A stretch of 64,000 nucleotides of DNA, taken from the NCBI RefSeq assembly GCF_009914755.1, contig NC_060931.1; one strand, written 5' to 3'. Source of the stretch: the human T2T-CHM13v2.0 reference genome, Homo sapiens. This document shows, one piece after another, positions 41,207 to 50,546 of this stretch (position 1 is its first letter; every line of letters begins with the position of its first letter). The translations under genes and the position numbers were made by a program. The notes below the pieces were generated by a model. The model was given only the letters and a program-made list of their open reading frames with translations, was not told the origin of the DNA and ran no database searches.

Positions 41207-41417
41207 CAATTTTTGTTATTTCTTCTTAAAAAATGGGATACATGGGCAGAGCGTGCAGGTTTGTTACAGAGGTATACGTGTGCCACGGTGGTTTGCTGCA
41301 CTTATTGACCTGTCCTCTAAGTTCCCTTCCTCACCTCCAACCCCCCAACAGACCCTGGTGTGTGTGTTCCCCTCTCTGTGTCCATGTGTTCTCATTGTTC
41401 AACTCCCACTTATGAGG
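41207..41417 (-). mobile_element. L1PA (PA7/8-like) 3' end, ~200 bp
   Basis: L1 3' UTR; TSD gaacactgagta/gaacactgggta. Confidence 0.92.
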
Positions 41418-41796
41418 AACACTGGGTACATTTTAAGGACTTGATTTCCCTCATGAATTATATGTTAAATGTGAGGAAATGCTTACAGAGAAGAGTATAT
41501 CATATATACTCCGAGTAATAAAACTAAACTTCTGTTACACAATTCTAAGAATAAAAAATGTGTGCCCAGGTATTAGTTATAAAAGTCATCACTGTTAAAT
41601 TTATGTCTTCTTGGACTTATTTCCCAGATTAGAAATGAAAATTACATTTGATCTTGTCTTGTTCTTGACTGTACAACAAAACATGAGTCTTTCCAATAGT
41701 TATCCTTGATTAATGCTTTTAAATACTATTAATTTTATTTTACAGGTGATTCAATCTTCAAAGTTTGACAAATATCGTCAATATTCAAGATGGGTC

Positions 41797-42362: not shown

Positions 42363-42818
42363 CAGTTAATTCATGGACAACATAAGTCTATGCAGGTCCA
42401 CTTACCCAAGGATGTTTTTTCAATACAAGTTACACCGAGTGAACTCGCCTCTCTTGCCTCCCTTCTGCCTCTGCCACCCAACACAGTAAGACCAACTCTC
42501 CTCTTCTGCCCACTCAGCATGAAGATGATGAGGATAAAGACCTTTATGATGATCTGCTTCCATTTGAGGAATACGACATATTTTCTCTTCCTTGTGATTT
42601 TCTTAATAACATTTTCTTTAACTTACGTTATTGTAAAAATATAGTATATGACACATATACAAAATATCCATTAATAGACTGTTTGTGTTATCGATAAGGC
42701 TTGCATTCAACATTATGCTATTAGTAGTCAAGTTTTGGGGGAGTCCAAAATTTTATGTGGATTTTTAACTGTGCAGTGGGTCAGCACGTCAATTCCCACA
42801 TTAGTCAAGGGTCAACTG
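42363..42818 (+). mobile_element. Tigger2a/MER28 DNA transposon
   Basis: TIR remnants cagttaattcatggacaac ... gtcaagggtcaactg|ta. Confidence 0.85.
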
Positions 42819-42849
42819 TACAAACTCCTTACTAGGCATGTACAAAAGA

Positions 42850-42941
42850 AACACAATAATAGAGGGATACTTTCAAATATAACAAACAAGGGTTCCTTAA
42901 TCTCAGTTTGGGAAGCACTGCTATCCAGGATATGGCAGGGA
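42850..42941 (+). repeat. Donor arm of a perfect 92-bp inverted repeat (partner 46282-46373)
   Basis: Base-by-base reverse-complement identity, 92/92. Confidence 0.98.
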
Positions 42942-44861
42942 TATAAGGGGAAGTCAACGGGAGGGGTCAGCATAAACAAACATGATTAAGGCCAATATGG
43001 ATACTGGATACATTTCATGAGGACTACATCTTTTTTATATATATATTAAGCCAACACAAATGCAGCTAAACCCTGTATAGACTTACTGAGTTATTCAAAA
43101 GCAAAAAAAAAAAAAAAAAAAATACGCTATTTAATTACACTATCTAGAATCTTAAAAAGAAGTGTGTTTGGATAATTGGCCAAGGTTCAGACTTAAAAAT
43201 AGCTCTAGGGGCAACACTCATTTTATTTCACTTGCTTTAGCTAATAACTGTCACTGTTCTATCTTAGACAAGACTTTCTCAAGTTTTGGCCACACTTCTA
43301 CTTTGCAGTCAATTTTTGTGTCTGGTACAGACATTGGCAGCTTTTTCAAAGGGCTGTGCCAAAGGGTTAACGTCTTTTCTGATAGTGTTCATGAGTAAAG
43401 GGAAGAAAATCTAAATAGGCTCCTAGTCTTAAAGGTCAGGTGGCAGAAATTTTGACCAAACTCAGAATTTCCCTCTGGTGACATCTCTGTAACTTTGCTC
43501 CATACTTCTGCCTCTCCCACAGGGACCAGATGCTGGAATTTTATCTATGGCATCTCAGAAGATCAGAGAAAAACTAAAAGACAAGGCACAACTTATAAAC
43601 AAATTTGTAAAATAATAGGTCTACATCTAAGAAAATTCCATTCTACGTTATGCTGAATATTTTCACCTCCATCAAAATACAGAGGTTTCATGGCAAGAAA
43701 TCCAGTCTTCATGTTAAACGATCATAATAGCATATCTTAAGAAACCTTTTTGGGGGTCCCATAACCCTAAGAATCTGCTGAAAGCTGTGGATGTTGTTGT
43801 GGAAAAGTATTTGCATTAGTAGAGACAATTTTTCATACATTTTAGGGGGCTCATAGATCACCTGAAATCAAGCCAGCAACCCCAGGAAATTTTTGATTCA
43901 ATATAAATAGCAAAATACAGCTCCAAAGAGGTGACATCTTTTGCCTAACACAGCAGAGCATGTGAGCAGCAATAACATAGTTTTTTTGTTATTGTTGTTT
44001 TTTGTTTTTTGTTTTGTTACTCCCAATCTAATGGCCTGAAGAAAGCCCTTAACTTAATTCCTTTGGTAACAAAGACTTCAAAGTAAGTTGCAGGAAGTTT
44101 TTCAGAAGGAGAAGAAATATTTATTGTGTTTTTGAGGCATTGGGAAATCTTTCGGAACACAAATGCTGCAATTTTTTTTTTTTTTTTGCCCTAAAGAGCC
44201 AAGAAATGAAATTCATAAGCTTATTGCTATTCTGATTTGGAAAGACAAAAGTGAGGAAGATAAGCAACTGGAGTTAAAGAAAGTACCTGGAAGGACATCT
44301 GAGAGCTGGGAGAAGGTTCTCATATGGAAACAATATGATTCTGCAACAAGTCCGTATTGATTAGGATAAAACCAAGTCATCCCGAACATTATTGCAATTA
44401 TATTAACGAAATATTAAATTTCTAAATCAAAAAATGAAAAGTGAAAAATAGCTTTTTTCACTATTTTGAGCTATTACAATTGCATAAAAATTACTGTATC
44501 CTGAAATTTGAATTTCATATTTTGAGGTTAATAAATCAGCTAGTATTTTTTTAATAATGATATGCCTTATGTTTAAAAGCTAAGAAAAAAGGGACTATTA
44601 TATAATTCCATTTGCAAGGACTTTTCCATAGTGACATACATCCCAGAAATACCTTCACCTACTCCAGGGGTTTTAAACTGCCAAATAGGTCCTACTGACT
44701 GGCCAGCATAGCACGAAGGTCTACCTTAAACATTCTGCCCCCTCTCTGTCCCTCACTCTACTTAAATCAACTAATTTGCAGTTTCCCATGCCCTTGAACA
44801 TACCATGCTTGCTTCCTGTTGTGTCACTCTGATTTCCCTTTTTCTAAATGTAGATATTTCT

Positions 44862-45172
44862 TTTTTTTTTTTATTTTTTTTGAGACCGAGTCTCACTCTG
44901 TCGCCCAGGCTGGAATAGAGCAGTGCAATCTTGGCCCACTGCAACCTCCACCTCGGGGAATCAAGCGATTCCCCTGCCTCAGCCTCCTGAGTAGCTGGGA
45001 CTACAGGCACGTGCCACCACGCCCAGCTAATTTTTTTTTTTTTTTTTGTATTTTAGTAGAGACGGGGTTTCACCATGTTGGCCAGGCTGATCTTGATCTC
45101 CTGACCTCGTGATCCGCCCACTTCGGCCTCCCAAAGTGCTGGGATTACAGGCGTGAGCCACCGTGCCTGGCC
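44862..45172 (-). mobile_element. Alu (AluSg/Sc-like)
   Basis: Perfect 16-bp TSD aaatgtagatatttct at 44846-44861 and 45173-45188. Confidence 0.98.
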
Positions 45173-45383
45173 AAATGTAGATATTTCTGTTCATTCTTTA
45201 CATCCCAGAGTAGGAATCACCTATTTTATGAGGCCTTCTCTAAAACATTTTTCCTTTGTACCACCCTTTTATTTCATATATTATACATTATTGTCATTAT
45301 ATACATTTCCCCTTCTGAATTCTGTTTCTAGGAAGTAGGAACCCCGATTCCAAACACAATATGTAGCAGCAAATATTTATGAA

Positions 45384-46123: not shown

Positions 46124-46262
46124 GGCCGGGTGCGGTGGCTCACACCTGTAATCCCAGCACTTTGGGAGGCTGAGGTGGGCAGATCACCTAAGGTCAGGAG
46201 TTTGAGACCAGCCTGGCCAACATGGTGAAATCTTCTCTCTACTAAAAATACACAAATTAGCC
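46124..46262 (+). mobile_element. Alu left arm only, fused to L1 3' UTR
   Basis: Stops at aaattagcc; no right arm, tail or 3' TSD. Confidence 0.95.
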
Positions 46263-46281
46263 CTGGTGTGTGATGTTCCCC

Positions 46282-46373
46282 TCCCTGCCATATCCTGGAT
46301 AGCAGTGCTTCCCAAACTGAGATTAAGGAACCCTTGTTTGTTATATTTGAAAGTATCCCTCTATTATTGTGTT
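46282..46373 (-). repeat. 92-bp templated inverted insertion copied from 42850-42941
   Basis: Exact reverse complement; overlaps a duplicated tgttcccctccctg (46274-46287 and 46370-46383). Confidence 0.98.
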
Positions 46374-46403
46374 CCCCTCCCTGTGCCCATATGTTCTCAT
46401 TGT

Positions 46404-50546
<4,143 letters not shown>

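What the first reader, a model, noticed from the sequence alone, without database searches (positions are those of the whole stretch)
46274..46383. Recent 92-bp inverted templated insertion copied from 3.4 kb away, with microhomology at both ends
Seen: 46282-46373 is the exact reverse complement (92/92) of unique sequence at 42850-42941. It interrupts the L1 3' UTR, whose 14-mer tgttcccctccctg is duplicated on either side. Entry microhomology is TCCCTG (6 nt) and exit microhomology is TGTT (4 nt). The sister L1PA end at 41351-41415 shows the uninterrupted form. Known: this anatomy fits replication template switching (FoSTeS/MMBIR) or polymerase-theta templated insertion rather than retrotransposition (no poly(A)). 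Inference: 100% identity inside a diverged L1 implies a recent, possibly lineage-specific or polymorphic event.
Basis: partly seen in the sequence, partly recalled or inferred. Interest (0 to 1): 0.85.

Follow-up and report, generated by a model that had tools for sequence, protein, structure and literature searches.

The report
Inverted 92-base templated insertion in L1
An old, dead L1 repeat inside an intron of the human CRPPA gene carries a 96-base insertion whose core is a perfect backwards copy of unique DNA 3.4 kb away, a scar of DNA copying that jumped templates; it is a clean example of a known kind of mutation and has no evident function.

Summary
Window 46282-46373 is the perfect reverse complement (92/92) of 42850-42941. 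It is the longest exact inverted match in the window by far; the next is 38 nt, Alu against Alu. The 92-mer occurs only at these two places in the whole assembly.

The 92 nt include 6 nt (TCCCTG) and 4 nt (TGTT) shared with the target. That leaves 82 nt that are unambiguously foreign, plus a 14-nt target duplication, for a net gain of 96 bp.

All 29 related L1 copies examined, and the in-window L1 fragment at 41330-41430, are uninterrupted at this site. The L1 copy is therefore the derived one. There is no poly(A), no L1-endonuclease site and no lost target base.

Best reading: a microhomology-primed template switch, most likely replicative (FoSTeS/MMBIR type). Polymerase-theta or snap-back repair of a break is the main rival.

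The insert is far younger than the L1 (6.3% diverged). However, 0 differences in 92 only bounds its age to roughly the great-ape period. Human-specificity and polymorphism could not be tested.

New here:
- A truncated-Alu|L1 deletion junction lies 25 nt to the left, beside the place of the L1 3'UTR G4 motif.
- A 15-bp duplication-plus-filler lies 85 bp to the right and looks like a second small inverted switch.

Linkage of these three features is unproven. This is a known kind of mutation, of modest interest.

The parts
42850..42941 (+). Donor template, retained. It is unique DNA lying 27 nt outside an interspersed repeat that ends at about 42823. 42936-42941 (CAGGGA) is the priming microhomology and 42850-42853 (AACA) the exit microhomology.
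46124..46262 (+). Left arm of an Alu, cut off after ...AAATTAGCC (about 139 of about 300 nt). It has no right arm and no A-tail.
   Evidence: alignment with two in-window Alus; pairs I2-I5
46260..46262 (.). GCC shared by the Alu end (TTAGCC) and the L1 family sequence (GGCCC...): a 3-nt microhomology at the Alu|L1 deletion junction. The L1 state is inferred from relatives.
46263..46287 (-). 25 nt of L1 3'UTR left of the insert. Its last 14 nt (46274-46287) are the first copy of TGTTCCCCTCCCTG.
46282..46373 (+). Exact inverted copy of 42850-42941 (92/92), including the 6-nt entry and 4-nt exit microhomologies.
46288..46369 (+). The 82 nt that can only have come from the donor.
46370..46383 (-). 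Second copy of the 14-mer TGTTCCCCTCCCTG, where copying resumed on the L1.
   Evidence: (D7)
46384..48300 (-). Body of the old L1, read on the minus strand and examined here only to 48300. The ORF2 stop is at 46404-46406. The copy is 6.28% from the column majority of 15 relatives.
46469..46483 (.). Copy-specific 15-bp insertion: an 11-bp duplicate GATGGTTTCCA plus the filler CATA. ACATAGATG (46479-46487) is the reverse complement of CATCTATGT (46499-46507). This is a possible second, short-range inverted template switch.
   Evidence: (0 of 29 relatives carry it)
41236..41425 (-). Separate short L1 3'-end fragment, used as the uninterrupted in-window comparison.

Best explanation
This is a germline templated insertion made by replicative template switching (FoSTeS/MMBIR type). 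It has no function of its own.

Proposed path:
1. A growing 3' end inside the L1 3'UTR remnant, ending ...TGTTCCCCTCCCTG, left its template.
2. It paired its last 6 nt (TCCCTG) with CAGGGA at 42936-42941. This site lies 3.34 kb behind it, on the strand of the same polarity as the 3' end itself.
3. It copied 86 nt, from 42935 down to 42850, without error.
4. It left again and re-paired its last 4 nt (TGTT) with the original template, 14 nt behind the point of departure.
5. It then continued on the L1.

The result is 82 foreign bases in inverted orientation plus a 14-nt duplication (+96 bp), with no target base lost.

Shown: the donor/copy relation, its direction, both microhomologies, the duplication, the absence of loss, and an age far below that of the L1. 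Inferred: that the 3' end was a nascent strand at a disturbed fork rather than a resected break end, and which polymerase did the copying.
For: - The copy is exact, inverted and maximal at 92 nt, with the donor retained. Only these two places exist in the 3.1-Gb assembly.
- 29 of 29 related L1 copies, and the fragment at 41330-41430, read straight through the site. In each, the 27 nt before the homologue of 46384 resemble window 46261-46287 and not the insert. The L1 copy is therefore the derived one and no L1 base was lost.
- Microhomologies of 6 and 4 nt have chance probabilities of about 4^-6 and 4^-4 (my arithmetic).
- The donor lies upstream on the same strand and the copy is inverted. 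This is the geometry required for a switch from a leading strand to the lagging-strand template behind the fork.
- Returning 14 nt behind the departure point gives the duplication in one step. A break-repair model needs extra steps for it.
- 86 nt were copied without error from 3.34 kb away. Polymerase-theta inserts in C. elegans are mostly under 25 bp, 37-44% map within 20 bp of the break, only 2-3% come from more than 1 kb away, and errors were estimated at about 1 in 30 bp (PMC5068794, passages). At that rate (29/30)^86 is about 0.05 (my arithmetic).
- Germline inverted templated insertions with junction microhomology are described in normal people (PMC8421209, passages). 4017 short template switches were found across great-ape genomes (PMC7954356, passages).
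Against: - No sequence feature separates a fork-based switch from snap-back synthesis on a long resected 3' tail. The geometry fits both.
- There is no excess of point substitutions next to the junction: 3 mismatches in the first 82 aligned positions, against 3-11 per 100-bp bin elsewhere. So there is no trace of error-prone synthesis in the flank.
- The polymerase-theta figures come from mutagen-treated worms, not the human germline.
- The template is 3.34 kb away, further than the 100-bp search radius used to define MMB-TI events (PMC8421209).
- No orthologue, second human assembly or read data could be examined. The ancestral state of the site rests on paralogous L1 copies, not on an empty allele.
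Confidence: 0.55

Rival explanations
1. Repair of a double-strand break by polymerase-theta-mediated end joining or synthesis-dependent MMEJ. In this reading the left end was resected by at least 3.4 kb. Its 3' tail then snapped back on itself, primed at the 6-nt microhomology, copied 86 nt in cis, unfolded, and annealed through TGTT to the other end.
For: - An inverted copy of a donor lying 5' on the same strand is exactly what snap-back synthesis gives (geometry).
- Microhomology is present at both junctions.
- Reverse-complement, snap-back inserts and rare inserts from more than 1 kb away are reported for POLQ repair (PMC5068794, passages). Cis and trans templated extension is described in the abstract of PMC4912351 (search listing).
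- A nearby deletion junction (Alu|L1, 25 nt away) would suit a break.
Against: - The insert is three or more times longer than typical POLQ inserts and is error-free over 86 nt.
- No target base was lost, whereas POLQ scars are usually deletions with insertions.
- The 14-nt duplication needs an additional step, either a staggered break with fill-in or a first round of copying from the other end.
Confidence: 0.27
2. An RNA-templated patch. In this reading a piece of CRPPA intronic pre-mRNA was reverse-transcribed from a broken or nicked DNA end, by L1 ORF2p acting without its endonuclease or by polymerase theta, as proposed for class 2 templated sequence insertion polymorphisms.
For: - The donor lies in a CRPPA intron, and the gene is on the minus strand (hub annotation). 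It is therefore transcribed as pre-mRNA close to the target.
- The bottom-strand end ...GGGGAACA could pair with UGUU of that RNA and copy towards its 5' end, which gives the observed orientation (my inference).
- Class 2 TSIPs have no poly(A), show microhomology, and are thought to derive from RNA (PMC5110952, abstract and passages).
Against: - Class 2 TSIPs are defined as lacking target duplications, but here 14 nt are duplicated.
- Either orientation could be explained in the same way, so the orientation is not evidence.
- Nothing in the sequence requires RNA.
- Germline expression of this intron was not examined.
Confidence: 0.06
3. Not a germline variant of the species. Instead it would be an assembly error, or a mutation acquired in the cell line from which this assembly was made.
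For: Only one assembly could be examined. The identity of donor and copy (92/92) is what a very recent event would give.
Against: - The anatomy (two microhomologies, a 14-nt duplication, no loss) is that of a biological repair product, not of a misjoin.
- A 96-bp insert lies well within single long reads, so it would not arise from a misjoin between reads (inference).
- 92/92 is equally expected for any age up to several million years.
Confidence: 0.04
4. An L1-endonuclease-mediated retrotransposition of a non-L1 transcript (class 1 TSIP), with the 14-mer as a target-site duplication.
For: A 14-bp duplication of target sequence flanks the insert. This is within the usual range of L1 target-site duplications (recalled).
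Against: - There is no poly(A) at either end on either strand.
- There is no AATAAA or ATTAAA in the 82 nt on either strand.
- The sequence around the duplication (GTGTGA|TGTT..., CCCTG|TGCCC) is not TTTT/A-like (reading; criteria from PMC5110952).
- The two microhomologies would be unexplained coincidences.
Confidence: 0.01

Closest known systems
MMBIR-linked templated insertions (MMB-TI; Osia et al. 2021, PMC8421209) and FoSTeS/MMBIR breakpoint insertions
   Same: [quoted passage not shown] Such events are known as germline variants in healthy people.
   Different: The template here is 3,340 nt away, not within 100 bp (the search radius of that study). The event is a single clean two-switch insertion of 82-92 nt inside an otherwise collinear locus.
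Short-range template switch mutations (four-point model; Walker et al. 2021, PMC7954356)
   Same: Both involve departure from the template, reverse-complement copying and return. The return point may lie behind the departure point, and the result is a perfect inverted repeat in the descendant. The 15-bp event at 46469-46483 fits this class directly.
   Different: The main event is much longer in both copy length and distance than the clusters that model was built to detect.
Polymerase-theta templated insertions (van Schendel et al. 2016, PMC5068794)
   Same: Both show microhomology-primed synthesis, dissociation and re-priming. Snap-back inserts are reverse-complement.
   Different: Typical inserts are under 25 bp, come from within 20 bp of the break, are error-prone and accompany deletions. 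Here 86 nt were copied without error from 3.34 kb away and nothing was lost.
Templated sequence insertion polymorphisms (Onozawa and Aplan 2016, PMC5110952)
   Same: Both are insertions of a copy of a distant genomic segment with the donor intact. As in class 2, there is no poly(A) and there is microhomology.
   Different: This event has a 14-nt target duplication (a class 1 trait) but lacks the poly(A) and endonuclease site of class 1, so it fits neither class as defined. The donor is only 3.4 kb away, on the same chromosome.

Membership tests
Templated insertion by microhomology-mediated template switching (FoSTeS/MMBIR, MMB-TI) | The inserted bases are a copy of another genomic segment, and that segment is still in place | tested here: met
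   92/92 exact match. Donor and copy are the only two places in the assembly.
Templated insertion by microhomology-mediated template switching (FoSTeS/MMBIR, MMB-TI) | Microhomology of 2 nt or more at each switch | tested here: met
   TCCCTG (6 nt) at entry and TGTT (4 nt) at exit.
Templated insertion by microhomology-mediated template switching (FoSTeS/MMBIR, MMB-TI) | [quoted passage not shown] | tested here: met
   29 of 29 related L1 copies and the fragment at 41330-41430 are uninterrupted. The L1 continues on both sides of the insert. The ancestral state is inferred from paralogues, not from an orthologue.
Templated insertion by microhomology-mediated template switching (FoSTeS/MMBIR, MMB-TI) | Template within 100 bp of the insertion (operational criterion of MMBSearch) | tested here: not met
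   The template is 3,340 nt away.
Templated insertion by microhomology-mediated template switching (FoSTeS/MMBIR, MMB-TI) | Replicative origin (stalled or collapsed fork, break-induced-replication machinery) | not testable with these tools
   This would need genetics or replication-direction data for the germline.
Polymerase-theta-mediated end joining scar | A small insert (mostly under 25 bp) templated from the immediate flank, usually accompanied by a deletion | tested here: not met
   The insert is 82-92 nt, from 3.34 kb away, with no target base lost. Criteria are from PMC5068794.
Polymerase-theta-mediated end joining scar | Dependence on POLQ | not testable with these tools
L1-mediated insertion (class 1 TSIP, processed-transcript retrocopy) | Target-site duplication of 5 bp or more | tested here: met
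   The 14-mer stands at 46274-46287 and at 46370-46383.
L1-mediated insertion (class 1 TSIP, processed-transcript retrocopy) | A poly(A) tract at the 3' end of the insert, downstream of a polyadenylation signal | tested here: not met
   There is no A or T run at either end, and no AATAAA or ATTAAA on either strand of the 82 nt (reading).
L1-mediated insertion (class 1 TSIP, processed-transcript retrocopy) | Insertion at a 5'-TTTT/A-3'-like site | tested here: not met
   The sequence bordering the duplication is GTGTGA|TGTTCC and CCCTG|TGCCC.
Class 2 TSIP (cDNA patch at a break) | No target duplication; junctions of the end-joining type | tested here: not met
   A 14-nt duplication is present. 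Microhomology is present, and there are no untemplated bases.
LINE-1, 3' untranslated region (identity of the target) | The flanking sequence encodes the ORF2p C-terminus, and the site lies 3' of the ORF2 stop | tested here: met
   The minus strand of 46505-46900 matches ORF2p residues 1115-1246 of 1275, E 2e-70. The stop is placed at 46404-46406 (and arithmetic). Pfam gave 0 families for the same 132 aa.

The most novel reading that the evidence does not exclude
Three features within 230 bp may be the fossil of one multi-switch replicative repair event that started at the G-quadruplex motif of the L1 3'UTR. The features are the Alu|L1 deletion junction (GCC microhomology), the 96-bp inverted templated insertion, and the 15-bp inverted micro-switch. 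Under this reading the event arose late enough to be specific to humans, or still polymorphic. It would also leave CRPPA pre-mRNA with a perfect 92-bp intramolecular double-stranded RNA stem across a 3.3-kb loop.
Probability: 0.15. Interest if true: 0.45.

Novelty: new member of a known kind. Interest (0 to 1): 0.3.

Why it matters
This is a very clean, fully resolved example of a kilobase-range inverted templated insertion in the germline. Both switch points, both microhomologies and the back-step are readable to the base.

Published detectors look for templates within about 100 bp (PMC8421209) or for short mutation clusters (PMC7954356). Events of this reach are therefore probably under-counted. 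A simple scan of complete assemblies could measure their rate. It would look for exact local copies bounded by microhomology that interrupt dated repeats.

Locally, the event creates a perfect 92-bp inverted repeat in a CRPPA intron. On transcription this is a potential double-stranded RNA and editing substrate (inference, not tested).

It touches no exon (hub annotation), and nothing suggests a phenotype.

Tried and rejected

2. Search for an orthologue or second allele. I scanned for an exact 28-nt pattern across the Alu|L1 junction. It gave 0 hits in genome contigs and 0 in viral contigs. No primate or second human assembly is reachable, so age and polymorphism stay open.

3. Test for error-prone synthesis next to the junction. 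I counted mismatches to the column majority of 15 relatives per 100-bp bin. There were 3 in the first 82 positions, against 3-11 elsewhere, so there is no excess.

4. Test for clustering of indels near the insert.
- I used 15 of the 29 relatives, namely those with one BLAST alignment reaching at least window 47850. The other 14 were dropped as truncated or interrupted.
- This gave 10 copy-specific indels in 1917 bp, two of them within 100 bp of the insert.
- P(2 or more) is about 0.07-0.10 by my Poisson arithmetic, so the clustering is weak.

5. Idea that the L1 3'-end fragment at 41236-41425 is the missing end of this L1, or was itself a template. By my reading, the roughly 67-nt overlap differs at 3 substitutions and 1 indel. 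(family D5) gives 95% identity over 56 nt. That is no closer than unrelated family members, and it is not exact like the 92-mer. The apparent shared 'GAGGA' is explained by the fragment's 5' truncation at that point. Not supported.

6. Reading the event as a 92-nt fragment ligated in with a 4-bp CCCC duplication. This would require both fragment ends to repeat the neighbouring target by chance (about 1e-6). Rejected.

7. Reading the 15-bp insertion as a plain tandem duplication. This needs 3 substitutions within 4 adjacent bases. The inverted-template reading covers the filler, and 9 of 256 possible fillers do as well or better (p about 0.035). That is suggestive only.

8. Pfam on the ORF2 fragment gave 0 families. 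The identity was obtained from solved ORF2p structures instead.

9. Literature. A search for 'CRPPA' together with 'templated insertion' found 0 papers. Structural-variant catalogues are not searchable here, so I cannot say whether the allele is already listed.

Full report
**The observation**

Reading the window, the repeat finder (pair I1) and a script all agree. Bases 46282-46373 are the exact reverse complement of 42850-42941. The match is 92 of 92, and it does not extend by a single base on either side. 3340 nt lie between the two arms.

In the whole 64-kb window the next longest exact inverted match is 38 nt and the longest exact direct match is 41 nt. Both are Alu or simple-repeat matches, so the 92-mer is not a chance match.

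The window lies in an assembly of 3.117 Gb in 24 contigs. A search of that assembly with the 92-mer found two places only, the donor and the copy.

The donor is unique DNA. The stretch just beside it, 42550-42823, is an interspersed repeat that is 75-80% identical to the 39 other places listed. It ends with CAGTTGACCC, which I recall as a Tigger-type terminus; this was not tested. The donor begins 27 nt outside that repeat.

**Anatomy to the base**

The target is the 3'UTR of an old L1 that lies on the minus strand.
- The minus strand of 46505-46900 matches LINE-1 ORF2p residues 1115-1246 of 1275 in solved structures (E 2e-70). Pfam found nothing for the same 132 aa.
- Counting on from there, and reading, the ORF2 stop is the reverse complement of 46404-46406.
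- The insertion site is therefore 21-34 nt into the 3'UTR.

The 14-mer TGTTCCCCTCCCTG occurs at 46274-46287 and again at 46370-46383.

The 92-nt match includes two microhomologies:
- the last 6 nt of the first 14-mer (TCCCTG, 46282-46287, opposite 42936-42941);
- the first 4 nt of the second 14-mer (TGTT, 46370-46373, opposite 42850-42853).

So 82 nt (46288-46369) are unambiguously foreign, 14 nt are duplicated, and the net gain is 96 bp.

**Which copy is derived**

I searched the assembly with the L1 flank 46384-46900. The first look gave 9516 candidates, of which 40 were scored. 29 loci other than the window itself were fetched; the listed matches were 87-89% identical.

In all 29, and in the separate short L1 3'-end fragment at window 41330-41430, the sequence runs straight through the site with one copy of the 14-mer region. 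In each relative, the 27 nt before the homologue of 46384 resemble window 46261-46287 and not the insert.

The L1-borne copy is therefore the insertion, and no L1 base was lost at the site.

**Retrotransposition is excluded**
- There is no A or T run at either end of the insert on either strand.
- There is no AATAAA or ATTAAA within the 82 nt.
- The sequence bordering the duplication is not TTTT/A-like (reading).

These are two of the three defining features of L1-mediated class 1 insertions (PMC5110952, abstract and passages). The third, a target duplication, is formally present but is better explained below.

**Mechanism**

The simplest path has two switches.
1. A 3' end reading ...TGTTCCCCTCCCTG paired its last 6 nt with CAGGGA at 42936-42941.
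2. It copied the plus strand leftwards for 86 nt, to 42850.
3. It came off, paired its new last 4 nt (TGTT) with the original template 14 nt behind the departure point, and went on.

The chance of 6 and 4 nt of junction identity is about 4^-6 and 4^-4 (my arithmetic).

The template is the strand of the same polarity as the invading end and lies 5' of it. That is the geometry of a switch from a leading strand to the lagging-strand template behind a rightward fork. It is equally the geometry of a resected 3' tail snapping back on itself.

I favour the replicative version (0.55) over polymerase-theta or snap-back break repair (0.27), for three reasons:
- The back-step gives the 14-nt duplication with no further assumption.
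- 86 nt were copied without error from 3.34 kb away.

For comparison, POLQ inserts in worms are mostly under 25 bp, 37-44% map within 20 bp of the break, 2-3% come from more than 1 kb away, and the error rate was estimated at about 1 in 30 bp (PMC5068794, passages). That comparison crosses species and conditions and is not decisive.

An RNA-templated patch from CRPPA intronic pre-mRNA cannot be excluded (0.06), because the donor is transcribed with the gene. However, nothing requires it, and class 2 events are defined without target duplication.

**Age**

The L1 differs from the column majority of 15 relatives at 118 of 1880 positions, or 6.28%. An insert as old as the L1 would be expected to show about 11.6 differences from its donor. 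It shows none, so it is much younger.

But 0 of 92 is weak as a clock. With recalled species divergences, P(0) is 0.33 at human-chimpanzee depth, 0.23 at gorilla depth, 0.06 at orangutan depth and 0.0025 at macaque depth. The 92-mer has no CpG, which loosens the bound a little.

'Recent' is therefore supported only in the sense of 'within the great-ape period'. Human-specificity or polymorphism could not be tested: pattern scans for the junction in the two reachable collections found nothing, and no other primate or human assembly is available here.

(a) The Alu|L1 junction.
- Only 25 nt left of the insert, the L1 is joined directly to the left arm of an Alu (46124-46262), which stops after ...AAATTAGCC.
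- The Alu lacks its right arm and tail.
- The L1 lacks its last 150-174 nt (measured in 23 of 29 relatives).
- Alu TTAGCC and the L1 family sequence GGCCC share GCC, a 3-nt microhomology.
- In 16 of 29 relatives a four-run C3+ motif ends 6-9 nt left of the point homologous to this junction. This is the G-quadruplex motif of the L1 sense strand.
- Such motifs are localised in the L1 3'UTR (PMC4407331, abstract). The L1 3'UTR motif was among the G4 motifs tested for inhibition of the replicative polymerases (PMC12038398, abstract in the listing and passages).

(b) The 15-bp insertion.
- 85 bp right of the insert there is a copy-specific 15-bp insertion (46469-46483; 0 of 29 relatives carry it).
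- It consists of an 11-bp duplicate plus the filler CATA.
- The filler with its neighbours (ACATAGATG, 46479-46487) is the reverse complement of CATCTATGT at 46499-46507.
- This has the same anatomy as the main event in miniature. 9 of 256 possible fillers would do as well or better.

**Are the three features one event?**

Three microhomology junctions plus a micro-switch within 230 bp invite the reading of one multi-switch event begun at the G4 motif. The support is weak, however.
- This L1 has 10 copy-specific indels in 1917 bp, so two within 100 bp has P of about 0.07-0.10 (and my arithmetic).
- There is no local excess of substitutions.

I put the fully linked reading, including late origin, at 0.15.

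**Comparison with what is known**

Three published classes describe this kind of mutation:
- germline inverted templated insertions with junction microhomology (MMB-TI; PMC8421209);
- short template switches in apes (4017 events; PMC7954356);
- templated insertion polymorphisms (PMC5110952).

The present case differs in reach (3.34 kb against the 100-bp search radius of the first) and in copy length. It also falls between the two TSIP classes as defined.

I found no paper linking CRPPA with templated insertion. Variant catalogues could not be consulted.

**Verdict**

Recency is bounded only, and the finding is ordinary in kind. It is a new member of a known kind, of modest interest (0.3). Its main value is as a textbook-clean, kilobase-range example and as a pattern for a genome-wide scan.

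Noticed in passing
window 46124-46263: An Alu left arm is joined directly to an L1 3'UTR that lacks its last 150-174 nt. The junction shares GCC. It lies 6-9 nt from where 16 of 29 related L1 copies carry the four-run G-quadruplex motif. It is an old deletion junction that may or may not belong to the same event as the insert.
   Followed up: partly
window 46469-46507: A copy-specific 15-bp insertion consists of an 11-bp duplicate plus CATA. It turns a 4-nt inverted repeat into a perfect 9-nt one (46479-46487 and 46499-46507), which is the signature of a short-range template switch. It adds 5 in-frame codons to the dead ORF2.
   Followed up: partly
window 42550-42823: An interspersed repeat is 75-80% identical to the 39 other places listed in the assembly. 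Its minus-strand end reads CAGTTGACCC, which resembles a Tigger-type DNA transposon terminus (recalled, not tested). The donor of the insertion starts 27 nt beyond it.
   Followed up: partly
window 41236-41425: A short 5'-truncated L1 3'-end fragment on the minus strand has a degenerate T-rich tail to its left. It overlaps the other L1 in family coordinates by about 67 nt but is no closer to it than unrelated copies are.
   Followed up: yes
window 44846-45188: A complete minus-strand Alu is flanked by a direct repeat AAATGTAGATATTTCT (family D3). This is an ordinary target-site duplication.
   Followed up: no
window 46888, 46938, 48071-48091: The same L1 has other copy-specific indels: deletions of 21 and 10 nt and a 21-nt insertion in an AT/CA-rich stretch. 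They set the background rate of about one indel per 190 bp.
   Followed up: partly
window 43103-43122: An A20 run lies about 160 nt from the donor segment. Poly(dA:dT) tracts were reported near the initiation sites of short template switches (PMC7954356). This one is at the donor, not at the departure site.
   Followed up: no
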